Shown piece after piece: positions 1,542 to 40,443 of a stretch of DNA of 42,322 nucleotides (the stretch's first letter is position 1; each line of letters begins with the position of its first letter). Location of the stretch: NCBI GenBank assembly GCA_043805315.1, contig JAZDID010000098.1:1-42322 (forward strand), given 5' to 3'. The position numbers and the translations under genes are program-made. The notes below the pieces were generated by a model that worked only from the letters and a program-made list of their open reading frames with translations, was not told the DNA's origin and did no database searches. The stretch is from Nanobdellota archaeon. Its GTDB lineage: Archaea > Nanobdellota > Nanobdellia > Woesearchaeales > JAHJEM01.

Positions 1542-1596
1542 CCCTATCGACTAAACCTGCTCATATAATCTAAATTGTCTAGTGGGGTGAAAACAC

Positions 1597-1830
1597 ATGG
1601 CAGAAAAAGTAGCAAAAGTTGGGGTACGGAAAGTAGATGGCTACCTCTATTTCGTCGACAAGCAAGGAGATATCTCTCGGGCAGTCATGTCGCGGGGCGG
1701 CGGAAAGAAAGGAAAAGGCAAGAGAGAGAAAGTAGCAAAGGTCGGCGTCAAGAAAGTCAAAGGCTACCTCTATTTCGTCGATAAGCACGGAGACGTCTCC
1801 CGGGCAAAGATGGCCAGGGGAAGAAAATAA
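1597..1830 (+). CDS. Small, highly basic protein built from two tandem ~35-aa repeats
   Basis: 77 aa. Repeat 1 is EKVAKVGVRKVDGYLYFVDKQGDISRAVMSRG and repeat 2 is EKVAKVGVKKVKGYLYFVDKHGDVSRAKMARG, joined by a GGKKGKGKR linker. The DNA repeats (about 1603-1700 vs 1727-1820) are roughly 80% identical. SD-like GGGGTGA lies upstream and a T-rich terminator follows. Confidence 0.7.
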   Translation: MAEKVAKVGVRKVDGYLYFVDKQGDISRAVMSRGGGKKGKGKREKVAKVGVKKVKGYLYFVDKHGDVSRAKMARGRK

Positions 1831-4189: not shown

Positions 4190-4202
4190 GGCATTAATAA
4201 AC

Positions 4203-4210
4203 TTTATAAA
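4203..4210 (+). promoter_or_regulatory. TATA box candidate (TTTATAAA followed by CCACCCC) upstream of lemA
   Basis: The box has the same form as those at 9384 and 30798. GAGGTGA lies 7 nt before ATG 4246. Confidence 0.4.
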
Positions 4211-4245
4211 CCACCCCTTATTTGCATCGAGAGAGGTGACCTAGA

Positions 4246-6256: not shown

Positions 6257-7275
6257 TTATATGAACTGGCGGACAGCCCGTAGTGGGCTTGTGACCAGCT
6301 GCGACGGGACGATATAGCAACTCATGTAGCACTTCCCCGCGCACTTCGGAATAGGACCGTATTTCTTCTCCAGCTTGCGCAATGCCATCATGTAATCACC
6401 TTCCTTCAGAAGGTTGATCTTCGCCTTTCCCAAGGGCTTGCAGGGATAGGAAAAGTCGCCGTTCGGGTCGACCCGCGGCGTCAATGTTGGATAGCATGAG
6501 AACGGCCCGATCGTCTCTATCGTCTCAAGATAGTCATCTGAATCGAGCAAGAGCGTGCTTTTCTTCTTGGTTTCTCGCACATACCGGATCATCTCCTGGA
6601 ATTGCTTGCTGTGCACCACATCGCGGTTGACTGTCTCGTCATCTAAAAGCTCTGGCGAGACTGTGAAACGGATGCCGTGTTTTGGGTAAAGAAGATCACC
6701 TGCTTCACCTGGGGAAGAGTGTCTTTTGTGGCGACGCAGTTGATGGTCATGACATATCCTTTCTTTTTTTGCAATGCGGCGCATCTGATGATGTTCTCCT
6801 TCACTTTCGCGACAACCTGTGCTGGAGCCTTGACGACCTTTGCGTAGGCGTTCATGTCAGCCATATCCATGCTCACGTTCAGGTTGGTCAGGTAATCAAG
6901 GGTATTCATGCGCTTGTGCATGAGACTCATGTTGGAGATCATGCTCACTGAGGAAAATCTCAGCTTCTTTGCGGCCTTCAGAATCTCGACGATATCCTTT
7001 CGCATGAGCGGCTCTCCGCCAGTGATGTAGAGGTTCGGGCAGGCTTTCCTGATGATGCCCAACAATTGGATCGCTCCTTCTGTATCCAGCTGTTGCTGCG
7101 GATGCCTGGTGATGCCTGTATGCGCGTACACACAGTAGGCACAGTTGAAATTGCACGCTGAAGTGACGTAGTAGGAGAACATGAGCGGCCGAAGCGATGA
7201 AGTCCTCCTCAGCTTTACCCGCAGAACATCTTCCAGGTAATTCCTTAGCACGTGCGCTGAGATCAAACCTTGCAT
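6257..7275 (-). pseudogene. Radical SAM protein with Cys-rich C-terminal domain, interrupted by a frameshift
   Basis: ORF 6643-7275 carries CNFNCAYC (CxxxCxxC) and ITGGEPLMRKD. ORF 6257-6784, in another frame, continues sensibly (DLLYPKHGIRFTVSPELL ... CYPTLTPRVDPNGDFSYPC ... CAGKCYMSCY). The frames switch near 6690-6712, at a CAGGTGAAGCAGGTG direct repeat on the minus strand. Confidence 0.7.
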
Positions 7276-7362: not shown

Positions 7363-8760
7363 TTATTTTTCTGTTGGTCTTTCTTGGTTTGGCGGTTCTT
7401 TTGTCTCTTTTTCAATCTTCTTCCCCTTCCTCACCTTCGGTCCATACCTCCTGTTCATCAACACCTTCAGCTTTGCGTACTGTGCAGGATTCTTTATCCG
7501 AGGACAGAATGAATCAGGAGTGCACACGCCGAAATCCTTGTAATAGCCTGGATTCGAGCAGTTGGGCGGAGGGACCTTCTTCTGCACGCCGCCAGAATAC
7601 CGTAATTGGCCTTTGATATAGACTTCCCGCAGCTTCTCAGGATTCTGCTCATTCCACTGGTAGATCCGCTCGCGAATCTTGTCCTTGTCCCAGCCCACGC
7701 TCGTCAAAAAATTGTTCAGGACGAACACAGACCTTTTCTTTCCATCCCTCAATCCTGCAAAGATGTTCTTGATGCAGGGAGGGAAGAACGCTTCTGGAAT
7801 GGCTTCCACGTCCACATCCTCATACTGCCGGTGTTCTTTGGTCTCTTCCTCTTTCTCATAGCGAGTCCTCTCTGTAGTAAAATCATATGCCTGTTTGATG
7901 AGTTTGGTAGCCTCTCCAGGAACCACATTCCGGACTAAGAACGTGTGTTGTGGCTTGACCTGCTCTGGCTTTGCCTGCTCTTTCCTGAACTGCAAAACCT
8001 CGTCAGGATCAATAGGCACGCTCACCAAGCCTGACTTTTCATGCAGAGAATACGGCATGCGGTACATATGCCTGCTCGAAATCAAGATCGTGTCAATAAC
8101 AAGGAAGGATTCTGAATTCAACTGCTTCACATTGATACCTGCCTCGTTTTTTTCGATCCTTGTAATCTCTGCCTCATTCAGCCCGGTTTTCTCCTTGATC
8201 TTCTCAAAATCCCCTTTCTCAAATGTAATAATGGCATCTCCAGTAACATCCTTGATCAGGAATTTGATATACTCTGCAATCTTGCGCGGAGCCTCTGGAA
8301 ACAATTCTTTCGTGGGCTTATTATGGATGATGTCAGGAAATGCTTCAAACGGAACGCCGATGTGGAATCCTTTGTTGCCAGAGAACTTGCATGTCACACT
8401 CTTGATGCCATGATAGCGCAAGGCTTTAATCGTGTAATATGCTGCGATCTTTGAATATTCAAACACCTTACAATCAATGTCTAAAACAAGGTCCCAGCCG
8501 CTTCTGAGTTCATCCAATTCTCTCCGGGAAAGGTCAGGGTTCAGATGCAACGGATTTTTCCACAGTTCTTCTGAGCAATGGAAGCTGAAAGCCTTCTGCT
8601 TTGCAAACTCCAAGATGTCATTGGGATAGCTCAACACCTCAGGACGCCTGCCGAAGCCTTCCTCAAACCGTACAGCGACTTCCTTGTTCTTTGCATGCAG
8701 GACCATCTCTTTCCTGATGTCTTCCCGCTTGTAATACGACAGGCTCGTGGCAAAATACAT
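7363..8760 (-). CDS. priS: Fused archaeo-eukaryotic primase: PriS catalytic domain + PriL-CTD-like 4-Cys domain
   Basis: 465 aa. AEP motifs are DLVLDIDC (DxD) and SGNKGFHIGVPF (sGxGfH). The C-terminal part has four Cys (PPCIKNI ... PPPNCSN ... GVCTPDSFCPRIKNP) and helical PriL-CTD-like sequence. Confidence 0.8.
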   Translation of the reverse strand: MYFATSLSYYKREDIRKEMVLHAKNKEVAVRFEEGFGRRPEVLSYPNDILEFAKQKAFSFHCSEELWKNPLHLNPDLSRRELDELRSGWDLVLDIDCKVFEYSKIAAYYTIKALRYHGIKSVTCKFSGNKGFHIGVPFEAFPDIIHNKPTKELFPEAPRKIAEYIKFLIKDVTGDAIITFEKGDFEKIKEKTGLNEAEITRIEKNEAGINVKQLNSESFLVIDTILISSRHMYRMPYSLHEKSGLVSVPIDPDEVLQFRKEQAKPEQVKPQHTFLVRNVVPGEATKLIKQAYDFTTERTRYEKEEETKEHRQYEDVDVEAIPEAFFPPCIKNIFAGLRDGKKRSVFVLNNFLTSVGWDKDKIRERIYQWNEQNPEKLREVYIKGQLRYSGGVQKKVPPPNCSNPGYYKDFGVCTPDSFCPRIKNPAQYAKLKVLMNRRYGPKVRKGKKIEKETKEPPNQERPTEK

Positions 8761-8781
8761 GCAGAGAGATAATGGAGAAGG

Positions 8782-8791
8782 TTATAAAAAA
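8782..8791 (-). promoter_or_regulatory. TATA box candidate for the primase gene (leaderless spacing)
   Basis: The minus strand reads TTTTTTATAA and ends about 22 nt before the ATG at 8760. Confidence 0.4.
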
Positions 8792-8808
8792 GTTGTTACT
8801 GCAAGGCC

Positions 8809-8995
8809 AAGTCAACTATGTATTATTGAATGTGCCTACCACCCACCAATTCTTTTTCAGATTGTTCCCACCCATCATTGAACAAGTTCAATGGGGTATT
8901 GTCGAATACATTCGACAGGGTTTGGACACAGTCCAAACTTTAAGCCTGGCTTAAACCACCTCCCCTCCACCACCCAGACCCAGGTAATGAACTGC
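8809..8995 (+). repeat. Conserved C-rich intergenic element, copy C (interrupted)
   Basis: The sequence is AAGTCAAC ... TGTGCC ... TTCTTTTTCAGATTGTTCCCACCCA (to 8874), then an 80-nt insert, then CCACCTCCCCTCCACCACCC (8956-8975) ... AGGTAATG. It is collinear with copy A at 36679-36782. Confidence 0.7.
8876..8955. repeat. Cassette of four consecutive palindromes, each with 8-bp arms
   Basis: The four palindromes are CATTGAAC-aa-GTTCAATG (8876-8893), TGTCGAAT-ac-ATTCGACA (8900-8917), GTTTGGAC-aca-GTCCAAAC (8920-8938) and TTTAAGCC-t-GGCTTAAA (8939-8955). I verified each by reverse-complementing the arms. Confidence 0.85.
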
Positions 8996-9161
8996 ATCTA
9001 CATTTCTTCAGAAAAACACATCAAGAAAACAGCACTCAGAAGCGCACAACGCAACAAACACATCCTAAATTGGTAAGATTTTTAAATCCACCCTGCCTTT
9101 TCATTGCCACATCAATGCCTGTATTGTGATTTTCGGGAAAATTTGGTGTGAAGGTGATCAT

Positions 9162-9311
9162 ATGCCACAAGGAAGATGCATGAAATGCAAGAAGCAGGTC
9201 GAGATCAAGAATCCAGTCAACGTAGTCATGAAGAACGGCATGGAAGCTGCAAAAGGCGTCTGCCCGACCTGCGGAACCAAGGTGTTCAGGATACTCGGAA
9301 AAAAGAAGTGA
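9162..9311 (+). CDS. Small zinc-ribbon protein (DUF5679-like)
   Basis: The ATG at 9162 is preceded by AAGGTGATCAT, so I moved the start from the track start 9126. The 49-aa product MPQGRCMKCKKQVEIKNPVNVVMKNGMEAAKGVCPTCGTKVFRILGKKK has CxxC ... CxxC. Confidence 0.6.
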   Translation: MPQGRCMKCKKQVEIKNPVNVVMKNGMEAAKGVCPTCGTKVFRILGKKK

Positions 9312-9366: not shown

Positions 9367-9383
9367 AAACCCAAACAGCAACC

Positions 9384-9391
9384 TTTATAAA
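9384..9391 (+). promoter_or_regulatory. TATA box candidate for the ribosomal protein operon
   Basis: TTTATAAA is followed by CCCGCC. It is the only such box between the terminator at 9341 and rpl3, and implies a roughly 130-nt leader. Confidence 0.5.
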
Positions 9392-9416
9392 CCCGCCATT
9401 ATTCCTGACGAGCAAG

Positions 9417-21849: not shown

Positions 21850-22443
21850 ATGAAATACCGAAGAAAAAAGAATGTCAGGCTCCGCGGCTCAAAGACCCAT
21901 GCCTGGGGTGCCATGAAAAAGCACCGGGGAGCAGGCCACCGCGGAGGAAGAGGACGGGCAGGATCAGGAAAACGTGCAGACCAGAAAAAACCCAGCTATT
22001 GGAAAGAGAAGAACTGGGAAGGCAAGCACGGGTTCACCTCAAAATCACGCGCACACGTCTCTGCCATCAACATCAAAGACCTTGACCAGACCGCAGAAAA
22101 GCTCGCCAAGGAACAGATGATACAGAAAGCAGAAAACACCTATACTATCAACCTGAAAGAGCTCGGCTATACAACCCTGCTCGGAACAGGCAGCACGGCC
22201 AAGAAATTCATCATCACTGCAGAGCACGCATCCCGGGGAGCCAGAGAAAAAATAAAAGCTGCTGGCGGCGATATTCTCGGGCTCAAGCCAAGAAAACAGA
22301 AAAAAATAAAAGGCAAAGCGCACGAAGAAAAAGAACACAAAGAACAAAAGGAACAAAAGGGACAAAAGAAACAAGAAGAAATAAAGGAACAAAAGGAACA
22401 AAAGGAACAAACAGCAGCAGAGCAAAAAACAGCAGCGCAATAA
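21850..22443 (+). CDS. rpl15: Ribosomal protein uL15 with Lys/Glu/Gln repeat tail
   Basis: 197 aa with RRKKNVRLRGSKTHAWG and GGRGRAGSGKR. The tail is KAHEEKEHKEQKEQKGQKKQEEIKEQKEQKEQTAAEQKTAAQ. Confidence 0.92.
   Translation: MKYRRKKNVRLRGSKTHAWGAMKKHRGAGHRGGRGRAGSGKRADQKKPSYWKEKNWEGKHGFTSKSRAHVSAINIKDLDQTAEKLAKEQMIQKAENTYTINLKELGYTTLLGTGSTAKKFIITAEHASRGAREKIKAAGGDILGLKPRKQKKIKGKAHEEKEHKEQKEQKGQKKQEEIKEQKEQKEQTAAEQKTAAQ
22333..22413 (+). repeat. 9-nt in-frame repeat family (GAACAAAAG) inside the rpl15 tail
   Basis: GAACAAAAG occurs at 22342, 22351, 22387 and 22396. Variants are GGACAAAAG at 22360 and GAACAAACA at 22405. Confidence 0.75.
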
Positions 22444-23853: not shown

Positions 23854-23916
23854 CCTCTTTTAAGACCCTCCTTCTTTTCATTGCATTCTTTTAGTATTGT
23901 GCCAGTACAATAAAAG

Positions 23917-23924
23917 TTTATAAA
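23917..23924 (+). promoter_or_regulatory. TATA box candidate (TTTATAAA followed by CCGC)
   Basis: It lies upstream of the Cys-rich ORF. AAGGGAGGT lies 7 nt before ATG 24004. Confidence 0.4.
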
Positions 23925-24003
23925 CCGCTCCAGACTGATTCTGCAGATGAGAGGTGAAGAGCAGAAAAACTGAAGAATATAAAAAATAAGGGAGGTCATA
24001 GAC

Positions 24004-24473: not shown

Positions 24474-26441
24474 ATGACAAAAAGAATTGGCCCAGGAAAG
24501 ACCGCTCTTTTTACAATCCTGCCTGTGCTTGCATTATTTTTCTCGATACTAGTGTCTGCAGTTGATCAGGAAGAGCAGTATCCTTACGATTTTCTGCCTG
24601 AACGCAACTTCACCTTGAACCTGACAACAGCTAAGGAGGAAGTTTACCAGAAGACAATCATCACGCTCACTAAATTCCTTGCTGCGCAGACCAGGAGCTA
24701 TGACCAGAACACCAAAGGAGACAGTGTTCCACCTGAACAGGAAAACAGCCTGGCCTATGAATATACTGCAACATTGGAACAGGCAGAAGAGCTCTACTGG
24801 TGGATACGCTATCACCCGCCAGAGGAATTGCTTACCAAACCTACATTAGCATGGGTCACTTATCCTATACGGAACATATTCTGGAAAGCAGAGACCTACG
24901 ACGTGTTTGATGGCAGACGATGGTCAAAACGTGGAGAATCGCATGACATCCTGCCGGAGGCTGCAGAATTTGAAACCCTCACAATACTTCATCCCGAATT
25001 TAACCTAGCCAGTGAATTCAACCTTATCCGCCCAGACACCCCTGAATCAAGCATTGACTTCAGAAATTTTAGAAAACCAAAAAAAAGCTTTATCATGTCA
25101 GACAGCTACAGTGATACACGATTGGTGTCTAACAGTGAAAATAATTTTCTCAACTATTCAGTCAAGTATGCTCCGTATAATCCAGAAAGAGAAGTATATT
25201 ACGTTACACCTTATGAATCAGAGGTGATGAGGCAGAACACTCTTGTTCCTCCTGGTATCCTCCAAGAGCTCTCCTCTCTTGCTTTGGAGCTCAAGAATCC
25301 CTCATTGCCTTTACCCGTCCAGCTGAAAAAAAATGCAGAGTTTGTCAGGAACTATCTCACCTACGATCCTGCATGGTTTGCAGGCATAGGCCTGCGCAAT
25401 GATTCTGGAAATATCCTCGAGTATATCCTGACAAATAGAAAGGGCACCAGCCCCCATTACACCACCTTATTTATCCTCATCTCCAGGATACAAGGCATTC
25501 CTGCACGGTTCGCCTCAGGCTATGTCAGCGGGGTCGCATTCGAGAACAAAAGCTATGTCTATGATTCCTTCAGCTATACGTGGCCAGAAATCTATGAGCA
25601 GGGCAAAGGATGGATTCCGTACGATTTGGCACCGTTCAAAGAGCAAGATAAGAAAATAAGAAAATTGGCTGGTATGAACAGCTCTGAACCTATCACGAGC
25701 TATCCTGATGATTCAACACTCCAGCACCTGCTTCTCAAACACCTTGCAGCATGGTACGCGAGGAATTGGACAACTGAGGAACAAAACAAAACTCCCGAGC
25801 AATCGCAAGAACCACCCGGGATAACAGAACAAGAGCAGACAAGTGATTCCCCTGAACCGCATGACCTAGACTTCACAGAAACAATAGATATCGAGGCCGG
25901 CATGCAGCTTGCTAAGAAATCTCCTGTAAACTGCGATGAGCTCGAAGACACGGCTGAGAATCAGGAACTCCTTAAAAAGTGCGGGAAAGAAACCATCACA
26001 GCCCACGTCACACAAAGCACACACACTGTCGTGTATGCCCTCTTTCTTTTCATTGGCACAGGCGGCCTCCTCTTCTTTTACCTGCTGCATAAGAAGAAAA
26101 AAAAGAAAAGGAATGCTTTAGAGCAGATTAAGAAGGAAGAGGTCATGAGCATTATGAAAGAGATGCTGCTTTTAGGAGAACAAAAAGAGTATGCGCAAGC
26201 GATTATTCAGGGATATAATACTGTCTGCAACCACCTCGCAGAGCAATTCCGGCTTGTTATGGAGCCGGGCACCACAGCCAGAGAGTTCATTCAAAAAATG
26301 CCTACGAATGCCGGACTGGAAAGCCTGTCTGTTCTTGTCTTCATCTTTGAAAAGTACGCATATGGATTTGAGACGGACAAGAAGGACTACGATGTTTTCA
26401 TGAACATCCTCCAGTCCTATGCACAGAGGGATGCCGGATGA
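24474..26441 (+). CDS. Transglutaminase-like domain protein with C-terminal TM + DUF4129-like domain; catalytic Cys and His substituted
   Basis: 655 aa. The TGase core is RKGTSPHYTTLFILISRIQGIPARFASGY ... SYTWPEIYEQGKGWIPYDL. A TM segment (VVYALFLFIGTGGLLFFYLL) follows, then the DUF4129-like TAREFIQKMP ... FEKYAYG. Confidence 0.8.
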   Translation: MTKRIGPGKTALFTILPVLALFFSILVSAVDQEEQYPYDFLPERNFTLNLTTAKEEVYQKTIITLTKFLAAQTRSYDQNTKGDSVPPEQENSLAYEYTATLEQAEELYWWIRYHPPEELLTKPTLAWVTYPIRNIFWKAETYDVFDGRRWSKRGESHDILPEAAEFETLTILHPEFNLASEFNLIRPDTPESSIDFRNFRKPKKSFIMSDSYSDTRLVSNSENNFLNYSVKYAPYNPEREVYYVTPYESEVMRQNTLVPPGILQELSSLALELKNPSLPLPVQLKKNAEFVRNYLTYDPAWFAGIGLRNDSGNILEYILTNRKGTSPHYTTLFILISRIQGIPARFASGYVSGVAFENKSYVYDSFSYTWPEIYEQGKGWIPYDLAPFKEQDKKIRKLAGMNSSEPITSYPDDSTLQHLLLKHLAAWYARNWTTEEQNKTPEQSQEPPGITEQEQTSDSPEPHDLDFTETIDIEAGMQLAKKSPVNCDELEDTAENQELLKKCGKETITAHVTQSTHTVVYALFLFIGTGGLLFFYLLHKKKKKKRNALEQIKKEEVMSIMKEMLLLGEQKEYAQAIIQGYNTVCNHLAEQFRLVMEPGTTAREFIQKMPTNAGLESLSVLVFIFEKYAYGFETDKKDYDVFMNILQSYAQRDAG

Positions 26442-27703
26442 AAGAAATAGCATATACACTCTATGCATTCACGGTCATATGCCTCTTTGTCATCACTGTA
26501 TTTCTCGTCCTGATGAGCTCGACTATCAGCGGCATGGTGCGGTTCAACCAAGAAGAGTGGGGATCCTACACTCAACTCAAGAAAGCCATTGCAGAAGAAG
26601 GGTATACTATAAAAATTCTCGTCTTTAATTTCAACAACATCCAAGCCGTCAGGAATGACTCGATCATCCTTATATTCTCTCCGCTCAAACCATATGATGT
26701 GCACGAGATAGACCTGCTGAAAGAGAAAGTTTCTGCCGGCTCCACGCTCATCATTCAAGACCGCTCTATTAACACATATTATCTCCTTAAGGCATTCAAC
26801 ATAACCAGGGGACTACACACGTTATACGAATTCGAGAGCTATCGCAAAAGGCAGGACCTTCCTATAGAACAATTTCATTATGCAGGCATTTCCGGAAATC
26901 TCTCATTTCGCCAGCCACAACCCCTTATCGAAATCCCTCGCTCTGCAGAAGTCATCAGCATGAGCTCGCCACAGAGCTATATGGACATTGATGACAATGA
27001 AATCCTCGATGACCAGGATGGGAAAGGGCCCTTTCCTCTCATCATCTCATTAGTCCATGAAAAAGGGACAGTGGTGGTCATCTCAGACAGTCATCTTCTC
27101 ACCAATGACCTCCTGAATAGAACTGAGAACAGAGGGCTCTTTGAATCCTTGTTACGCACTCTTGGAAATCCAGAAAAGAACCACGTTATCATCGACGAGT
27201 CCCATTCAGGAAAAAGCAATTTCTTCATCCCCACGATCAACCTCTTCATCATGCTTCTCAAGAACGAGTGGCTGGTCATCCTTTTTTCCCTCTGCTTTGC
27301 ATTGCTTTTCCTGGCTCAAAAGATCGCCGATGCCATCCATGAACAGAAGAAAAGGGTCAAGAGGGACCGTCCAGAAAATAGGTTCAGCGAGCTTGTGCAC
27401 AAGACCAAACGAGAGGCAGTATTAAGCATGAATATGAACACTTGGCTGGTTGTGCATATGGGGGATGAGCTGATGCGCCAGATGAAAAAAAGGCTTAACA
27501 GAAAAGATGACACGTCTGCTCCTGAAATACTGGCAGATGAGTTCTGCTCATATTTTCCTGTAGTAAATCCAATAGATTTAAAAAGAATAATCACCCGCAT
27601 CCAAGAGGTAAAAAACAAGAAAAACGCTGTCAGGAGCTTTGAGGAAGCAAAGAAGATTTGTGACAGTATCGAAGACCTCCTTCATAAAATCCAGTCCCTT
27701 TAA
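26438..27703 (+). CDS. DUF4350-like membrane protein
   Basis: 421 aa. It has an ATGA overlap with the upstream gene. An N-terminal TM segment is followed by an extracytoplasmic domain (GSTLIIQDRS, GTVVVISDSHLLTNDLLNRTENRGLFESLL), a second TM segment and a cytoplasmic tail. Confidence 0.65.
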   Translation: MKEIAYTLYAFTVICLFVITVFLVLMSSTISGMVRFNQEEWGSYTQLKKAIAEEGYTIKILVFNFNNIQAVRNDSIILIFSPLKPYDVHEIDLLKEKVSAGSTLIIQDRSINTYYLLKAFNITRGLHTLYEFESYRKRQDLPIEQFHYAGISGNLSFRQPQPLIEIPRSAEVISMSSPQSYMDIDDNEILDDQDGKGPFPLIISLVHEKGTVVVISDSHLLTNDLLNRTENRGLFESLLRTLGNPEKNHVIIDESHSGKSNFFIPTINLFIMLLKNEWLVILFSLCFALLFLAQKIADAIHEQKKRVKRDRPENRFSELVHKTKREAVLSMNMNTWLVVHMGDELMRQMKKRLNRKDDTSAPEILADEFCSYFPVVNPIDLKRIITRIQEVKNKKNAVRSFEEAKKICDSIEDLLHKIQSL

Positions 27704-27743
27704 AATTAGCTCATCCTATATGTGCAAAAAAGAGGTGATGCGC

Positions 27744-28691
27744 ATGAACGTCCCGCAGCTGTTTTCAAAGCTCTCTGCAGAGCTCAGCACAAAGATCATC
27801 GGGAAAACAGACATCATAGAGGAAATATTTATCGCCCTACTCTGCGACGGCCATATCCTTCTCGAAGGAGTCCCAGGCACAGCAAAGACCATCATCGCGA
27901 ACAGCATTTCCAAAAGCATCAATTGCAGCTTCAAGCGGATCCAATTCACGCCAGACCTTCTTCCCTCAGACATCCTGGGGACGTTCGTCTTCAGCCTCAA
28001 GACCCGGGAGTTCGAGCTCAGGCGTGGACCCATCTTTGCCAACTTCATCCTTGCCGACGAGATTAACAGGGCGCCTCCCAAGACCCAGGCTGCACTACTC
28101 GAATGCATGCAAGAGACACAGGTCACTCTTGAAGGATATACCTACAAGCTCAAAGTCCCATTCATCGTCATCGCAACCCAGAACCCTATTGACATGGAAG
28201 GCACCTACCCTCTCCCAGAAGCGCAATTAGACAGGTTCATGTTCAAGAGCAACCTGACCTACCCTTCACGGGATGAGGAAATACGCCTCTTGGCAATGAA
28301 AAACCTTCCGGACAAAGAGATTAAGAGCGTGATTTCACCAGCAGACATTGAAGCGTTGAAAAAAGAGCTGAGTACGGTTAAGATTGACGAAAGCATATAT
28401 GTCTACATCACAGATATCATCCAAAAAATACGCGGATTGCCTGACATTGAGCTCGGACCAGGGCCACGAGCCTCCATTGCCTTTCTTAAAGGAGCAAAAG
28501 CGTATGCCCTAATGAGCGGAAGGGAGTATGTCATTCCAGATGATGTCAAGCGCCTGGGCTATCCTATCCTGCGCCATAGGATACGGCTTAAGCCAGAAGC
28601 CCAGATAGCAGGAATCACTGTCAGCCAACTCATCTCCAAAGCAGTCAATGAAGTCCCAATACCTAAAGTAATGGACAAGTCGAGAAAATGA
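27744..28691 (+). CDS. moxR: MoxR-family AAA+ ATPase
   Basis: Walker A is LEGVPGTAKT and Walker B is ILADEINRAPPKTQAALLECMQE, with ATQNPIDMEGTYPLPEAQLDRF downstream. GAGGTGA (27732-27738) favours ATG 27744; ATG 27738 is also possible. The track start at 27639 overlaps the upstream gene. Confidence 0.9.
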   Translation: MNVPQLFSKLSAELSTKIIGKTDIIEEIFIALLCDGHILLEGVPGTAKTIIANSISKSINCSFKRIQFTPDLLPSDILGTFVFSLKTREFELRRGPIFANFILADEINRAPPKTQAALLECMQETQVTLEGYTYKLKVPFIVIATQNPIDMEGTYPLPEAQLDRFMFKSNLTYPSRDEEIRLLAMKNLPDKEIKSVISPADIEALKKELSTVKIDESIYVYITDIIQKIRGLPDIELGPGPRASIAFLKGAKAYALMSGREYVIPDDVKRLGYPILRHRIRLKPEAQIAGITVSQLISKAVNEVPIPKVMDKSRK

Positions 28692-29980
28692 ACTCAAGAG
28701 CCCTTGTTCTCATATTCATTTCTCTCTTCTGCATAACATACGGCATTGTCTTTGAACGCATAGAGCTCATGCTCATCGGCATCAGCCTTGCATGCTATCT
28801 GTTCTTCACCTACCTTTTCCTCCGTATCCGGACATCCGGCATAGAGATTGTCTTGAAAAAAGACATGGCAAGAAGCAGCCACGAGAAAGAAGACATCCAC
28901 ATCTTAGTCAATATAGAGGTCAACTCGCCCATGGTTTTCGATGTGACAGATGACGCACCAGAGAAAAACATCATCAAAGGGGAGAACAAGGTCTGCAATG
29001 CAAGAGGAAAGGCAACACTAGATTACACACTCAGGTTTGACAATTACTGCGTCTTCAAGACCGGGCCTGTCAAGATAGCTATCCATGACATGCAGCGGCT
29101 CTTTTACTGGGAAAAGCAGGCCGGAGAGACATATTATGTGCTTGTCTACCCCTCCCTGTTCGAGATTAGCAAGATTAAGTTCAAGATCACTGAAAAGACC
29201 CTCTCTAACCTCCTCGGCACACGTAAGACATCAGAGAAAGGTATGGGAAACGAGTTCATGTCCATCAGAAGATATGAAACAGGGGATGACATCAGGAACA
29301 TTGACTGGAAAGCCACTGCAAAGCTGGACACATTAATGGTGAAAACCTTCGAGATAGAAAGAAAACAGCGGATCTTTCTCTTGCTTGACGTGGGAAAAGA
29401 GATGAACACTGGAGAAAAGGCATCTATGATAGACACTGCCGTGTATTCCATGATCTATCTCAGCCAGCTCATCCTTGAAAGGAAGGACATGCTCGGCATC
29501 GGCCTCTATGCAGACGCAATACAGCTCTTCAGCCAGCAAGTCAACTCTCGAAACCAGCTCATGAATCTTTTTGAGCAGGTCAGCTTCCAGACATTCGATA
29601 AAGAGACAGATCACGAGCGCTGCTTTCACCAGCTGTCAGTATACATAAAAAAAAGATGTGGGCTCATCATTATCTCAAACCTCGTCTCAGAAAAACCTGA
29701 AAAGATATTTCACGCCGTACAATATCTGGCCTCAAAAAGCCATTCTATCCATCTCATCTGCCCCTTCGAGCCCTATTTCTTCCAGAAAGAGGAAAATTCG
29801 CTCTTGGACAAGATATCCTATCTCGTGGCAAAACAGCGCTATGACAAGTCCTATGACGAGCTGTACACCATGTTGAAAAAAATCGGCGTGACCATGCACA
29901 AGACAGGTCCGGACAATATAGGAATGAAGCTGACAGAGATCTATCTGGACATAGTCAAGAGGAATCTTGCAGCGGTCTGA
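28688..29980 (+). CDS. DUF58 (vWA-like) protein
   Basis: 430 aa. It has an ATGA overlap with moxR, two N-terminal TM segments, and the signature IRRYETGDDIRNIDWKATAKLDTLMVKTFEIERKQRIFLLLDVGKEM. Confidence 0.88.
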   Translation: MNSRALVLIFISLFCITYGIVFERIELMLIGISLACYLFFTYLFLRIRTSGIEIVLKKDMARSSHEKEDIHILVNIEVNSPMVFDVTDDAPEKNIIKGENKVCNARGKATLDYTLRFDNYCVFKTGPVKIAIHDMQRLFYWEKQAGETYYVLVYPSLFEISKIKFKITEKTLSNLLGTRKTSEKGMGNEFMSIRRYETGDDIRNIDWKATAKLDTLMVKTFEIERKQRIFLLLDVGKEMNTGEKASMIDTAVYSMIYLSQLILERKDMLGIGLYADAIQLFSQQVNSRNQLMNLFEQVSFQTFDKETDHERCFHQLSVYIKKRCGLIIISNLVSEKPEKIFHAVQYLASKSHSIHLICPFEPYFFQKEENSLLDKISYLVAKQRYDKSYDELYTMLKKIGVTMHKTGPDNIGMKLTEIYLDIVKRNLAAV

Positions 29981-30774: not shown

Positions 30775-30797
30775 ACAACGCACGGCGGTATCATAAA

Positions 30798-30806
30798 TTT
30801 TATAAA
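30798..30806 (+). promoter_or_regulatory. TATA box candidate (TTTTATAAA followed by CACCCCC) for the DUF106 gene
   Basis: It ends 32 nt before ATG 30839. AAGGTAG lies just upstream of the ATG. Confidence 0.45.
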
Positions 30807-30838
30807 CACCCCCTTGTTCTGGCAATTAAGGTAGCACT

Positions 30839-36607: not shown

Positions 36608-36630
36608 ACTGCCTTAGAAATAGGAGGAGT

Positions 36631-36639
36631 TTAAAAAAT
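36631..36639 (-). promoter_or_regulatory. TATA box candidate for pheS (leaderless spacing)
   Basis: The minus strand reads TTTTTTAAA and ends about 24 nt before the ATG at 36607. Confidence 0.4.
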
Positions 36640-36678
36640 TTGTTGAATTTGCAGTCCTATGTCTTTCATACTGATGCG

Positions 36679-36782
36679 AAGTCAACGAGTGTGTGCCGGA
36701 AAATGCACTCACTACATTCTTTTTTACAGATTGCTCCCACCCACCTCCCCCAACCACCACCTTGGCAAAAGGTAATGCATTA
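36679..36782 (+). repeat. Conserved C-rich intergenic element, copy A (uninterrupted)
   Basis: The sequence is AAGTCAACGAG ... TGTGCC ... TTCTTTTTTACAGATTGCTCCCACCCACCTCCCCCAACCACCACC (core 36727-36761) ... AGGTAATGCATTAC. Confidence 0.7.
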
Positions 36783-37028
36783 CATCGACTCAGTTGGCGA
36801 TTGGCCAAGTCCGGTTGGTTGTGGTAGAGTTGAGCTGCCAGTCGTGCTCAGCAAGGAGTTCTTTAGCACTTCAAAGTAACAATCCCTCCGATAGATTTAT
36901 ATAGTACTTTGGTATAGCCATATGGTGAAACCATTGTGTGTGGGTAAAAAACAGTAATATATTTATAGTAGTTATGCATAATCAATATTAAAAAGGGGTG
37001 ATTAATCCTCATTTTTGGAGGTAGAAGC

Positions 37029-37826
37029 ATGATTGTTAAAGAAGAGTTTTTAAACAAGCTACGGAGAACGTTTTCTCTGAACCTCTATGAGGTCAAGATT
37101 TGGACAGCCCTTCTTTCCAGAGGGGTATCCACGGCAGGAGAGCTTTCTGACATCGCAAACGTCCCCAGGTCCAGGTCGTATGATGTCCTGGAGAGCCTAG
37201 AGAAAAAGGGATTTGTGGTGATGAAGCTGGGCAAGCCAATCAAGTACCTGGCTGTGCCGCCGAAAGAGGTCGTAGAGCGCGTAAAGAAAAACATGAAGAC
37301 CGACGCAGAAGAGCGGATCAAGAGGCTGGAGGATCTCAAGAGCACTGACGTGATCCACGAGCTGAACTCTCTCCACACCCAGGGGATAGAGCTCATCGAA
37401 CCGTCTGACCTGTCCGGCGCGTTGAAAGGAAGACACAACCTCTACAACCACCTTGAGATGACCATAAAGGGAGCGCAGAAACAAGTCAGTATCGCAACGA
37501 CTGCGCAAGGCCTGCTGCGGAAAGTGGAAGGCTTGAAGCCGATCTTCCAGGACCTCTCGAAAAAAGGGGTTGACATCAAGATAGCGGCGCCCATCAATAA
37601 GGAGACAGAAGCAGCGATCAAGGAGCTGAAAGGCATCGCAGAAGTCAGGCATTCTGACGGCAAATCCAGATTTACCATTGTGGACAGCAAGGATGTCATC
37701 ATGATGGTCATGGACGACGCAGAAGTCCATCCGACGTATGACATCGGCATCTGGCTCAAGGCACCATTCTTGGCGTCAGCGCTCCAGACCATGTTCGACT
37801 CGAACTGGAAGAGCCTGAAACGATAA
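37029..37826 (+). CDS. TrmB-family transcriptional regulator
   Basis: 265 aa. The wHTH is LNLYEVKIWTALLSRGVSTAGELSDIANVPRSRSYDVLESLEKKGFV, followed by a coiled coil and a C-terminal domain. GGAGGT lies 6 nt before the ATG. Confidence 0.88.
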   Translation: MIVKEEFLNKLRRTFSLNLYEVKIWTALLSRGVSTAGELSDIANVPRSRSYDVLESLEKKGFVVMKLGKPIKYLAVPPKEVVERVKKNMKTDAEERIKRLEDLKSTDVIHELNSLHTQGIELIEPSDLSGALKGRHNLYNHLEMTIKGAQKQVSIATTAQGLLRKVEGLKPIFQDLSKKGVDIKIAAPINKETEAAIKELKGIAEVRHSDGKSRFTIVDSKDVIMMVMDDAEVHPTYDIGIWLKAPFLASALQTMFDSNWKSLKR

Positions 37827-39856: not shown

Positions 39857-39976
39857 TTTTGATTGATACTCTTCATTTTAGAATGCAAAAAACAAGCTGT
39901 TTTAATAATTTTATCGAAATTTCGCTCTATTGACTTGCTCATGTTGACGAATATGCTCGTGGCAATCATCTTTTAT

Positions 39977-40012
39977 AGGATTGTGCCCACCCACCAGCCC
40001 CCAACCACCACC
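39977..40012 (+). repeat. Conserved C-rich intergenic element, copy B (core only)
   Basis: AGGATTGTGCCCACCCACCAGCCCCCAACCACCACC is preceded by TCTTTT. It has the same orientation as copies A and C. Confidence 0.7.
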
Positions 40013-40113
40013 CTAGGTTGGTCATCAGAACTAATATCAGAAATGATGCATCAGGAGAAAAGAATGCTCAGAAAAACACCACGAGAAGATTGGCCTTGAA
40101 TTTTCTCCATATA

Positions 40114-40122
40114 TTTATAAAA
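40114..40122 (+). promoter_or_regulatory. TATA box candidate (TTTATAAAA), leaderless spacing to ATG 40144
   Basis: It ends 21 nt before the ATG. Confidence 0.45.
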
Positions 40123-40143
40123 TACGCCGTATTCCTCTCCTGC

Positions 40144-40443
40144 ATGAAACCTCTCTTGCTGCTCGTCTGCATCTTCCTTCTTGCAAGCCTGCTTGCTGCA
40201 GCGCCTGCACAAGCCTGCACCTTGTGCAGCTATCCTCGGTATTATACTGGCCATTATCCGAATTATATGTCCATGCGCTTTGGCGTGTATGGCGGCGGAG
40301 ACTATTATCACAGCCAGTACACGATCTTCGGAGATTATAGAGGAGGAGGAAACCGTTACTCGTACATGAATAGGATAGGCTATGGTGCAAAGCCGTGGTG
40401 GCAGTATAACCGGCTCGTCTATACTCGCCATCCTTTTTCATGA
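40144..40443 (+). CDS. Small secreted Tyr/Gly-rich protein
   Basis: The start moves to ATG 40144 (MKPLLLLVCIFLLASLLAAAPAQAC), which gives a signal peptide. The 75-aa mature part has 15 Tyr plus GGG runs. The track start at 40018 lies upstream of the TATA box. Confidence 0.6.
   Translation: MKPLLLLVCIFLLASLLAAAPAQACTLCSYPRYYTGHYPNYMSMRFGVYGGGDYYHSQYTIFGDYRGGGNRYSYMNRIGYGAKPWWQYNRLVYTRHPFS

What the first reader, a model, noticed from the sequence alone, without database searches (positions are those of the whole stretch)
36679..36782. Conserved C-rich (minus-strand G-rich) element in three divergent intergenic gaps, always in the same orientation
Three gaps each separate a leaderless minus-strand gene from a plus-strand gene: primase|zinc-ribbon (8761-9161), pheS|trmB-family (36608-37028) and pelota|Tyr-rich ORF (39857-40143). 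All three carry the same plus-strand motif: a T-run, then CAGATTG or AGGATTG, 2 nt, CCCACCCACC, 1-2 nt, and CCCCAACCACCACC. Copy A is 36727 CAGATTGCTCCCACCCACCTCCCCCAACCACCACC 36761. Copy B is 39977 AGGATTGTGCCCACCCACCAGCCCCCAACCACCACC 40012. Copy C lies at 8858-8874 plus 8956-8975. Copies A and C also share flanks (AAGTCAAC ... TGTGCC upstream, AGGTAATG downstream), so the unit is about 100 nt. A 1-nt indel between A and B changes the reading frame, so the conservation is at the nucleotide level and not in a peptide. In each case the core starts roughly 100-120 nt upstream of the minus-strand ATG. On the minus strand it reads as consecutive G-tracts (GGTGGTGGTTGGGGGAGGTGGGTGGGAG), which could in principle form a G-quadruplex. 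I could not fit it to a tRNA, a C/D-box sRNA, an ORB-type origin box or a CRISPR repeat.
Basis: seen in the sequence. Interest (0 to 1): 0.72.

Follow-up and report, generated by a model that had tools for sequence, protein, structure and literature searches.

The report
Orphan C-rich repeat between divergent genes
Three head-to-head gene gaps of an uncultured DPANN (Woesearchaeota-like) archaeon share a real, non-coding sequence of about 45 bp that is absent from all relatives, always lies beside a flipped or newly acquired small gene, and has no assignable function.

Summary
GATTGNNCCCACCCA occurs exactly three times, all on the + strand (0.01 expected). It sits in a 34-45-nt block of T-run, GATTG, CCCACCCAYC and a C-rich tail. 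A profile of the block finds nothing else in the window.

It matches no tRNA or Rfam family and shows no conserved RNA fold. The shared blocks do not keep one reading frame, and the gap ORFs have no homologue. It scores high on G4Hunter, but only copy B fits even a relaxed four-tract G-quadruplex pattern.

New here: the element is lineage-specific. It is absent from 1.35 Mb of related DPANN loci, from a close relative (primase 89% identical) and from genome, metagenome and viral pattern scans. In relatives the same genes lie 29-163 nt apart. In the window the gaps are 288-421 nt, and the gene facing the element is inverted (TrmB, DUF5679) or an orphan (Tyr-rich ORF). An octamer, AAGTCAAY, lies 50-51 nt left of the core in all three copies but is flipped in B.

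Best guess (about 0.35): a DNA-level site that organises or insulates newly formed back-to-back promoters. Rivals are a mobile or recombination footprint, a C-rich small RNA, or decaying small ORFs. Function is unproven and only three copies are available.

The parts
36717..36761 (+). Copy A core: TTCTTTTTT-ACA-GATTG-CT-CCCACCCACC-T-CCCCCAACCACCACC. It has no G from 36734 to 36763.
36679..36686 (+). Copy A auxiliary octamer AAGTCAAC, 50 nt left of GATTG.
36770..36777 (+). Copy A AGGTAATG block, shared with copy C (marginal, p about 0.03).
36645..36890 (.). Window-specific spacer DNA of gap A. It lies between the pheS promoter (TATA 36631-36640) and the conserved TrmB upstream region (from about 36893).
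39968..40012 (+). Copy B core: ATCTTTTAT-AG-GATTG-TG-CCCACCCACC-AG-CCCCCAACCACCACC.
39929..39936 (-). Copy B auxiliary octamer AAGTCAAT at the same 50-nt offset from GATTG, but in inverted orientation.
39885..40110 (.). Spacer DNA of gap B. Together with the orphan Tyr/Gly-rich secreted ORF (40144-40443) it fills a position where relatives have about 84 nt between pelota and the orf397 homologue.
8850..8876 (+). Copy C core, left half: TTCTTTTTC-A-GATTG-TT-CCCACCCATC.
8877..8954 (+). 78-nt insert splitting copy C. It consists of four different perfect hairpins or palindromes in a row.
   Evidence: z = -6.85
8955..8975 (+). Copy C core, right half: ACCACCTCCCCTCCACCACCC, homologous to A 36740-36761.
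8809..8816 (+). Copy C auxiliary octamer AAGTCAAC, 51 nt left of GATTG.
8982..8989 (+). Copy C AGGTAATG block.
8797..9066 (.). Window-specific DNA of gap C, bounded by blastn homology to the close relative L100 (primase side up to 8796, DUF5679 promoter side from 9067).

Best explanation
The element is a lineage-specific, non-coding element that acts as DNA.

Structure:
- A strand-asymmetric core of about 45 bp: T-run, GATTG, 2 nt, CCCACCCAYC, then a C-rich tail.
- An auxiliary octamer AAGTCAAY 50 bp to its left.
- Both lie in roughly 225-270 bp of new spacer DNA that separates two back-to-back promoters.

Proposed mechanism (inferred):
- The core and octamer are recognition sites for a sequence-specific DNA-binding factor. 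Alternatively, the core is a structure-prone G/C-asymmetric tract that responds to the negative supercoiling generated between divergently transcribed genes.
- Together they organise or insulate head-to-head promoter pairs created when a small upstream gene was flipped (TrmB, DUF5679) or newly inserted (Tyr-rich ORF).
- The T-run on the + strand would also stop upstream-antisense transcripts that start at the near-symmetric TATA box of the leaderless minus-strand gene.

Shown: the copies exist and are homologous; the core is better conserved than the flanks; no coding signal, RNA fold or known RNA family was found; the element is lineage-specific; it is placed at remodelled junctions; the octamer keeps its position but not its orientation.

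Inferred: protein binding, insulation or termination, and any non-B DNA structure.
For: - The core is far better conserved than its flanks: 0.79, 0.71 and 0.65 against 0.30-0.50. The exact 15-mer is invariant in all three copies. This argues for constraint on the sequence itself.
- AAGTCAAY sits 50, 51 and 50 nt from GATTG in A, C and B but is flipped in B. The octamer is expected about 3.7 times per 42 kb on both strands, so a hit at the same offset within 1 nt has p of about 3e-4 (my own estimate). Position kept while orientation is free fits a protein-DNA site and does not fit an RNA.
- There is no consensus RNA structure on either strand: -3.3 and -7.7 kcal/mol with no useful covariation. 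Single folds of copy A are not better than shuffles; copy B was not folded on its own.
- No Rfam or tRNA match was found.
- Orientation and distance to the minus-strand gene are constrained: 99-122 nt from the ATG. All three copies lie in head-to-head gaps.
- Relatives have 29-163 nt at the same positions against 288-421 nt here.
- Prokaryotic promoters often fire in both directions because of sequence symmetry (PMC10268837). Archaeal RNA polymerase terminates at oligo-T tracts (my own knowledge: Santangelo and Reeve).
- The copies rank 1st, joint 2nd and 4th among G4Hunter windows.
Against: - No binding protein is known, and no transcription or structure data exist for this organism.
- Only three copies can be seen. 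The rest of the genome could not be retrieved.
- A 45-bp block 87% identical between A and B looks more like common descent (copying) than a typical transcription-factor site.
- Copy C tolerates a 78-nt insert in the middle of the core.
- The T-run is short in B (T4) and weaker than this genome's real terminators.
- The three downstream genes (primase, PheRS, pelota) have no obvious reason to be co-regulated.
- The octamer statistic is post hoc.
Confidence: 0.35

Rival explanations
1. The element is a footprint or functional end of a small mobile or recombination-associated element. The core would be the part needed for mobility or recombination: a transposon end, an att-like site or a recombination hotspot. 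Its insertions brought in or accompanied the new spacer DNA, the single-gene inversions (TrmB, DUF5679) and the orphan gene. It would have no host function.
For: - All three copies lie in DNA absent from relatives, including one with a primase 89% identical.
- In each case the adjacent + strand gene is inverted or novel.
- A-B similarity has sharp edges, with the core at 0.79 and the flanks at random level, as expected for a short copied unit.
- The window shows further lineage-specific insertions.
- The G/T-rich strand is the kind of sequence that stalls forks and is favoured by strand-exchange proteins (my own knowledge).
Against: - There are no terminal inverted repeats or target duplications.
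- No inverted or direct repeats flank the flipped or novel segments.
- None of the 30 ORFs scanned contains a transposase, integrase or invertase domain.
- The core has almost no G and cannot form the hairpins used by REP/RAYT or IS200/IS605 ends.
- There is no match in viral or plasmid-like contigs.
- All copies keep the same orientation and a similar distance to the downstream gene, which random insertion does not predict.
Confidence: 0.28
2. The element is a family of small non-coding RNAs transcribed from the + strand. Their unstructured, G-free, C-rich stretch would act as a seed that pairs with G-rich targets such as Shine-Dalgarno regions. A and C contain CACCUCC, identical to the anti-SD end of 16S rRNA. 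This would work like the C-rich-seed sRNAs RsaE/RoxS of Firmicutes.
For: - The core is G-free for about 30 nt.
- A and C carry CCACCTCC.
- This genome uses GGAGGTGA-type SD sequences on some genes.
- The + strand downstream of the core in B and C is A/C-rich, like sense strands here, and ends at T4-T5 runs.
- Compact DPANN genomes rarely keep gaps of 300-400 nt without a gene.
Against: - No BRE/TATA box lies at a fixed distance upstream of the core. The T-run is too close to act as one and matches the genome's TATA consensus poorly in A and C.
- There is no conserved secondary structure or terminator hairpin.
- B lacks the anti-SD heptamer.
- The auxiliary octamer is flipped in B.
- There is no Rfam match.
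- Downstream parts differ almost completely between copies.
Confidence: 0.17
3. The gaps hold small, fast-evolving or decaying protein genes of 52-61 codons on the + strand with a Pro/Thr-rich middle. The C-rich core would be their coding sequence: ...I(A/V)PTH-(Pro/Thr-rich)-...-(D/N)W.
For: - ATG-started ORFs of 58, 52 and 61 codons exist in one common relative frame.
- The 1-nt A/B indel is compensated 5 nt later, the C insert is 78 nt (26 codons), and the downstream blocks keep the same relative frame in all copies (my arithmetic; about p 0.01, post hoc).
- The + strand open frames in A and B are longer than in shuffles (p 0.04 each).
Against: - The upstream shared blocks (AAGTCAAC, TGTGCC) are in different frames in A and C.
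- This frame has a stop in C just after the core, and the C ORF starts inside the insert.
- CCCCCAACCACCACC is identical in A and B yet read in different frames.
- Substitutions are not biased to third positions.
- The source's gene caller called none of them.
- A profile of the three ORFs finds no true homologue among 1.84 billion representatives; the single hit is a spurious tandem-repeat ORF.
- The open frame in C is not unusual (p 0.57).
Confidence: 0.07
4. The element acts purely as a G-quadruplex (minus strand) or i-motif (plus strand) switch, with no specific protein. The fold itself would regulate the upstream region of the leaderless genes.
For: - G4Hunter magnitudes are 1.88-2.08, ranking 1st, joint 2nd and 4th in the window.
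- ViennaRNA with the G-quadruplex option places a two-tetrad quadruplex in all three minus-strand RNAs.
- The location between divergent promoters is where negative supercoiling favours non-B DNA (twin-domain model, my own knowledge).
- Recurrent intergenic PQS that fold in vitro are known in Methanomicrobiaceae (PMC8044849).
Against: - No copy fits the canonical four-tract pattern, and only B fits with loops up to 12.
- G-tract number and spacing are not what is conserved. GATTG, the T-run and exact non-G positions are conserved, and a pure structure does not need them.
- Copy C separates its tracts by 78 nt.
Confidence: 0.1

Closest known systems
Recurrent potential G-quadruplex sequences (rPQS) of Methanomicrobiaceae (Chashchina et al. 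2021, PMC8044849)
   Same: Both are short, highly similar G-rich/C-rich sequences repeated at several intergenic sites of an archaeal genome. Both are clade-restricted, lie a few hundred nt or less from gene ends, and have unknown function.
   Different: - rPQS have four G3+ runs with loops of 1, 3-5 and 1 nt plus a complementary C3TC3 track. They lie mostly between tail-to-tail genes, occur in either orientation, and only 11% are head-to-head.
- The element here has no canonical four-run pattern and no complementary track.
- It has a fixed orientation, lies only in head-to-head gaps, and carries extra conserved non-G parts (T-run, GATTG, octamer).
Short interspersed prokaryotic repeats (REP/BIME, MITEs)
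   Same: They are dispersed, non-coding, intergenic, lineage-specific and variable between close relatives.
   Different: REPs and MITEs rely on palindromes or terminal inverted repeats and often show target duplications. This core is essentially G-free and cannot pair with itself. No TIR or TSD was found, and no RAYT or transposase is in view.
Putative mobile promoters / promoter propagation (Matus-Garcia et al. 2012, recalled from my own knowledge)
   Same: Homologous intergenic sequence lies upstream of unrelated genes within one genome. A and C share similarity from the core towards the promoter of the downstream gene.
   Different: The conserved part is 60-90 nt upstream of the TATA boxes, not the promoter itself. 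The primase promoter already exists in the close relative that lacks the element.
C-rich-seed regulatory sRNAs (RsaE/RoxS type; my own knowledge)
   Same: An unstructured C-rich stretch could pair with G-rich ribosome-binding sites.
   Different: No promoter, terminator hairpin, conserved fold or family match was found. Those sRNAs are bacterial.
Archaeal origin recognition boxes (ORB / mini-ORB)
   Same: The G-string-like run is on one strand, and one copy lies next to a replication gene (primase).
   Different: There is no dyad element. The copies are 3-28 kb apart, all in one orientation, and do not bracket an AT-rich unwinding region. No Orc1/Cdc6 gene was found among the ORFs scanned.

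Membership tests
tRNA / tmRNA | Cloverleaf detectable by ARAGORN | tested here: not met
   0 genes in the window. The core has almost no G, so it cannot form stems.
Any Rfam 15 family | Covariance-model score at or near the gathering threshold | tested here: not met
   No hit at gathering threshold. In E-value mode no hit overlaps any core; the one hit inside a gap, SNORD15 at 8975-9120 (10.3 bits against a gathering score of 75), only abuts copy C.
C/D-box sRNA | C box RUGAUGA and D box CUGA, with C' and D', spaced by guides of about 12 nt and closed by terminal pairing | tested here: not met
   Inspection of both strands. There are only isolated UGAUG-like words, with 7-nt spacing to CUGA in B and C and none in A.
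CRISPR repeat | Tandem array of repeats separated by spacers of similar length | tested here: not met
   Copies lie at 8860, 36729 and 39979, which is 3-28 kb apart, each alone in its gap.
ORB-type origin box | Dyad element plus G-string, with inverted copies flanking an AT-rich region near orc1/cdc6 | tested here: not met
   No dyad was seen, all copies are on the same strand, and no Orc1/Cdc6 domain was found in 30 scanned ORFs.
Canonical G-quadruplex motif | Four runs of G3 or more with loops of 1-7 nt | tested here: not met
   None of the three copies fits. B fits only with loops up to 12.
G4-prone sequence (G4Hunter) | Absolute score of 1.5 or more in a 25-nt window | tested here: met
   Scores are -2.08, -1.96 and -1.88 on the + strand, ranking 1st, joint 2nd and 4th in the window. 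Folding was not tested.
rPQS of Methanomicrobiaceae | Four G-runs with loops of 1, 3-5 and 1 nt, an adjacent complementary C-rich track, and no link between orientation and genes | tested here: not met
   Sequence layout compared with the description.
MITE / IS-derived element | Terminal inverted repeats and target-site duplication, with a transposase somewhere in the genome | tested here: not met
   No TIRs in the gaps, no repeats flanking the remodelled segments, and no transposase in the window. The rest of the genome is not available.
REP/BIME | Imperfect palindrome of about 35 nt that folds as a hairpin | tested here: not met
   The core is G-free, and no hairpin over the core is conserved across the three copies.
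Invertible segment (inverton) | Inverted repeats at both ends of the flipped DNA, both orientations present in the population, and a recombinase | tested here: inconclusive
   No flanking inverted repeats were found. Orientation polymorphism and a recombinase could not be tested.
Small protein gene | One reading frame with a start in all copies, codon-position substitution bias, and homologues | tested here: not met
   Frames and starts are inconsistent. The ORFs were not called by the source's gene caller. No real homologue was found. Downstream frame conservation and ORF length are weakly suggestive.
Structured ncRNA (new family) | Conserved secondary structure with covariation | tested here: not met
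   RNAalifold gives -3.3 kcal/mol on the + strand and -7.7 on the - strand, with a negligible covariation term. Only three sequences were available.
Archaeal oligo-T terminator | Run of 5 or more T on the non-template strand at a transcript end | tested here: inconclusive
   The runs are T6 (A), T5 (C) and T4 (B). No transcript data are available.

The most novel reading that the evidence does not exclude
The core would be a strand-oriented boundary module, prone to G4/i-motif formation or bound by a protein. It would be copied into, or would create, new head-to-head promoter regions when single genes are flipped or inserted. That would make it either a portable insulator/spacer for compact DPANN genomes or the recognition site of an unknown single-gene inversion system.
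Probability: 0.12. Interest if true: 0.75.

Novelty: new variant of a known kind. Interest (0 to 1): 0.42.

Why it matters
- DPANN archaea have very compact genomes and almost no characterised regulatory DNA or small RNAs.
- This is a conserved, oriented, non-coding element that appears exactly where gene order was remodelled: TrmB and DUF5679 flipped, and an orphan gene gained.
- If it has a function, it would be a handle on how these genomes rebuild promoter regions after rearrangement, or on what drives such rearrangements.
- It would also add a second, different case to the few reports of recurrent G-rich intergenic repeats in archaea.
- If it is only a mobile footprint, it is an ordinary lineage-specific repeat.

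Tried and rejected
- **Known RNA.** Rfam gathering mode on the whole window, E-value mode on the gaps and ARAGORN gave nothing relevant.
- **Structured RNA.** Single folds and RNAalifold on both strands show no conserved structure. The long hairpin in A (C-rich arm paired with 36813-36827) is absent in B and C.
- **BHB intron for the 78-nt insert in C.** Rejected, because both exon sides are C-rich and cannot form the required helices.
- **tRNA 3' end or att remnant** (CCCACCC-A-CCA in B). Rejected, because no T-arm can form in a region without G.
- **H/ACA and C/D-box RNAs.** Their boxes are absent or wrongly spaced.
- **T-run as a TATA box.** It matches this genome's AAAnTTTATAAACC consensus poorly in A and C.
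- **Finding more copies.**
  - An exact pattern scan of genome contigs gave 0 hits.
  - Metagenome contigs gave 11 hits lacking the second half of the element and any flank similarity, which I judge to be chance; of the two inspected, L003's lies inside a 518-aa ORF and L009's lies in no ORF of at least 60 aa.
  - Viral contigs gave 4 chance hits.
  - nhmmer over all 105 fetched loci, 1.5 Mb, hit only the 11 loci that the pattern scans themselves had selected (10 shown). The 84 related loci, 1.35 Mb, gave no hit.
  - An exact look-up of the window's PheS found nothing.
  - The orphan Tyr-rich ORF was tried as bait for sister contigs and matched only itself.
- **Coding.** Six-frame reading, an ORF-length test, the gene-caller check and a profile search of 1.84e9 proteins gave no support beyond weak frame and length signals.
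- **Inverton or IS-mediated inversion.** No repeats lie at the ends of the flipped segments.
- **A C-rich run in relative L058.** It lies inside a coding gene and is not analogous.
- **Link to the TrmB operator.** The conserved TrmB upstream region shows no convincing similarity to the core.
- **Bacterial-type promoter and terminator scans.** These were uninformative.
Full report
**1. Observation**

- The exact word GATTGNNCCCACCCA occurs at 8860, 36729 and 39979, always on the + strand. Dinucleotide-preserving shuffles give 0.01 expected matches and none reached three.
- Local alignment gives a 45-nt A-B block (TCTTTT..GATTG..CCCACCCACC..CCCCCAACCACCACC, one 1-nt indel), a 38-nt A-C block and a 34-nt B-C block. 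blastn within the window gives E = 4.6e-6 for A-B and 9e-5 for A-C.
- A profile built from the three copies retrieves only them (E 1.5e-17 to 7e-8). The next hit is the displaced second half of copy C.
- They are the only 26-nt stretches with at least 68% C in the window. They rank first, joint second and fourth among G4Hunter windows.
- Pfam confirms the neighbours: a fused PriS-PriL primase, a DUF5679 zinc ribbon, PheS/PheT, a TrmB-family regulator, an FmrO methyltransferase and pelota.
- All three gaps are head-to-head. GATTG lies 99-122 nt from the minus-strand ATG.

- Copy C is interrupted by a 78-nt insert (8877-8954).
- The Tyr-rich ORF starts at 40144.
- The extended unit of about 100 nt is real only for A versus C, where flank identity is about 0.5 and the shared AAGTCAAC region has p < 0.003. 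B's flanks are at random level.

**2. What it is not**

- No tRNA and no Rfam family matches. In permissive E-value mode no hit overlaps a core; the only hit inside a gap is a sub-threshold SNORD15 match that abuts copy C.
- RNAalifold on the three units gives consensus energies of only -3.3 kcal/mol (+ strand) and -7.7 kcal/mol (- strand), with no useful covariation.
- Single-sequence folds of copy A are no better than shuffles. Copy C's + strand scores z = -2.3 only because of its insert.
- The core is practically free of G over about 30 nt, so it cannot pair with itself. This excludes REP-like hairpins and tRNA-like arms.
- Coding was examined closely.
  - The blocks shared by A and C upstream of the core (AAGTCAAC, TGTGCC) lie in different frames.
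  - The frame that is open in A and B has a stop in C right after the core. The other candidate frame has no start in B.
  - The 15 nt CCCCCAACCACCACC are identical in A and B yet read in different frames.
  - The gene caller behind the public record called the 49-aa DUF5679 and the 99-aa Tyr-rich ORF but none of the gap ORFs.
  - A profile of the three ATG-started ORFs (58, 52 and 61 codons) found only one spurious tandem-repeat protein among 1.84 billion representatives.
- Two weak signals keep coding from being fully excluded.
  - Downstream of the core the similarity blocks keep one relative frame in all copies. The 1-nt A/B indel is compensated 5 nt later and the C insert is 26 codons (my arithmetic, about p 0.01, post hoc).
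  - The + strand open frames in A and B are somewhat long (p 0.04 each).
  - Substitutions show no third-position bias, so at most these are decaying or very fast-evolving ORFs.

**3. G-quadruplex**

The minus strand is G4-prone by G4Hunter (magnitudes 1.88-2.08). No copy fits (G3+N1-7)x4, and only B fits with loops up to 12. The number and spacing of G-tracts differ between copies, and C has 78 nt between its tracts. The invariant parts are the T-run, GATTG and exact non-G positions, which a pure structure does not need. A G4 or i-motif remains possible but is not what the conservation pattern points to.

**4. Context and comparison with relatives (new)**

- PheS and primase searches place the window in the DPANN/Woesearchaeota-Nanoarchaeota group. 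The best PheS relatives are 61% identical.
- The window's own genome is not in the searchable DNA collections.
- I fetched 80 pheS loci from GTDB species representatives, which with four loci fetched earlier gives 84 related loci and 1.35 Mb. The core profile gives no hit there at E up to 10. C-rich runs are rare in them, and the one I inspected (L058) is coding.
- Pattern scans of the genome, metagenome and viral collections gave only hits that I judge to be chance, because they lack the second half of the element and any flank similarity.
- **Locus A.** In the relatives that keep synteny the order is orf397(-) | pelota, FmrO, TrmB, pheS, pheT, with the last five co-directional. The gaps are about 84 nt (orf397|pelota) and 65-88 nt (TrmB-pheS). 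In the window TrmB is inverted. Its upstream region is conserved nucleotide for nucleotide with relatives from about 36893. About 245 nt of new DNA (36645-36890) carrying copy A lies between it and the pheS promoter.
- **Locus B.** Between pelota and orf397 the window has about 740 nt of extra DNA. It comprises copy B plus a signal-peptide-bearing Tyr/Gly-rich ORF that has no homologue in 5.8 billion proteins.
- **Locus C.** A close relative was found (L100; primase 89% identical in protein, about 80% in DNA). There DUF5679 lies upstream of and co-directional with the primase, 60 nt away, and there is no element. In the window DUF5679 with its promoter is flipped, and 270 nt (8797-9066) containing copy C are window-specific. 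More distant relatives have 29-163 nt upstream of the primase.
- So all three copies sit in lineage-specific DNA at places where the facing small gene was inverted or newly acquired.
- No inverted or direct repeats flank these segments, the gaps have no terminal inverted repeats, and no transposase or recombinase domain is present among the 30 ORFs scanned.

**5. Internal architecture**

- The core is much better conserved than its surroundings: 0.65-0.79 against 0.30-0.50.
- The octamer AAGTCAAY lies 50, 51 and 50 nt to the left of GATTG in A, C and B, but in B it is on the opposite strand. The octamer is expected about 3.7 times per 42 kb, so a hit at the same offset has a probability of roughly 3e-4 (post hoc).
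- Conserved position with free orientation is typical of protein-DNA sites and incompatible with a function in RNA.
- The core's T-run (T6, T4, T5) lies about 55-90 nt downstream, on the + strand, of the near-symmetric TATA box of the minus-strand gene. B and C also share GTGTTTTTCTGA on the minus strand a short way inside the right-hand promoter.
- Prokaryotic promoters commonly fire in both directions (PMC10268837), and archaeal RNA polymerase terminates at oligo-T (my own knowledge). These runs could therefore stop upstream-antisense transcripts.
- The right-hand TATA boxes lie 101-102 nt (B, C) and 137 nt (A) beyond the C-rich end.

**6. Interpretation**

The most economical reading is a DNA-level cis element in the middle of newly formed back-to-back promoter regions. 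It would be a recognition platform (core plus octamer) for a sequence-specific factor, a supercoil-responsive structure-prone tract, or both, and it would organise or insulate the two promoters. I put this at about 0.35. Only the anatomy, the lineage specificity and the negative results are shown. Binding, insulation and structure are inferred.

The main rival (0.28) is that the core is the functional end or footprint of a mobile or recombination-associated element responsible for the rearrangements.
- The sharp A-B similarity edges, the absence from a close relative and the junction positions favour it.
- The lack of any repeats, duplications or enzymes, together with the constant orientation and distance to the downstream gene, speak against it.

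A C-rich-seed small RNA (0.17), a pure G4 switch (0.10) and small or decaying ORFs (0.07) are less well supported. These readings are not all mutually exclusive, and the confidences do not sum to one.

**7. Comparison with known systems**

The nearest described phenomenon is the recurrent PQS family of Methanomicrobiaceae (PMC8044849). Those are repeated G-rich intergenic sequences of unknown function. They have four regular G-runs plus a complementary C track, occur in either orientation and lie mostly between tail-to-tail genes. The element here fails those defining features.

It also fails the tests for REP/BIME, MITE, CRISPR, ORB, C/D-box RNA and any Rfam family. It therefore belongs to no known family. 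I rate it a new variant of the general kind 'short lineage-specific interspersed intergenic repeat'.

**8. Unexplained**

The 78-nt insert in copy C consists of four different perfect hairpins in a row (DNA fold z = -6.85). It is unique in all sequence held.

**9. Verdict**

The finding is real, non-coding as far as can be tested, and lineage-specific, and it is linked to local gene-order remodelling. Its function is unresolved because only three copies and no expression data are available. Interest is moderate (0.42). The decisive data are the complete genome, read-level orientation polymorphism and strand-specific transcript ends.

Noticed in passing
window 36893-37028 (and L014 9000-9130, L021, L023, L029, L045, L025): The roughly 135 nt upstream of the TrmB-family gene are conserved almost base for base across relatives whose PheS proteins are only 55-61% identical to the window's. 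The conserved parts are a TATA-like box, GACTATTG, GTAAAAAAYAGTAACATATATATAGTAGTTATGCG, ATTAAAAAGGGGTGATTARTCCTAC and the SD. This is a candidate autoregulatory operator or structured leader.
   Followed up: partly
window 37029-37826 and 9162-9311: TrmB and the DUF5679 zinc-ribbon gene are each inverted relative to their downstream neighbour (pheS, primase) when compared with relatives. No repeats flank the flipped segments.
   Followed up: yes
window 8877-8954: A 78-nt insert consists of four different, perfect, adjacent hairpins or palindromes (DNA fold z = -6.85). It is unique in the window and in 1.5 Mb of fetched loci, has no Rfam match, and is not a BHB intron.
   Followed up: partly
window 7363-8760: The primase is a single 465-aa PriS-PriL fusion, with Pfam hits to both the small and large subunit. 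Primases of similar length (432-503 aa) are found in the DPANN relatives, and many carry both Pfam domains.
   Followed up: partly
window 40144-40443: An orphan 99-aa ORF has a signal peptide and a Tyr/Gly-rich mature part. It has no homologue in 5.8 billion proteins. It lies in DNA that relatives lack between pelota and the orf397 homologue.
   Followed up: partly
window 24474-29980 and 6257-7275: There are further lineage-specific insertions relative to relatives. A transglutaminase-DUF4350-MoxR-DUF58 block lies between SecY and EMC3. A radical-SAM/DUF3463 pair lies between the M48 peptidase and the primase.
   Followed up: no
window 1589-1820 and 22306-22428: A tandem pair of 109-nt units is 76% identical at 123-nt spacing. 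A separate 9-nt periodic Lys/Glu/Gln-coding repeat is also present.
   Followed up: no
window 4199-4222, 9380-9403, 23913-23936, 30795-30818, 9075-9095: A recurrent promoter consensus AAAnTTTATAAACCnCCCC is seen. At the three sites where the downstream gene was read (4199, 30795 and 9075) it precedes genes that have a 5' leader and an SD. Leaderless genes have the TATA box about 25-32 nt before the ATG.
   Followed up: partly
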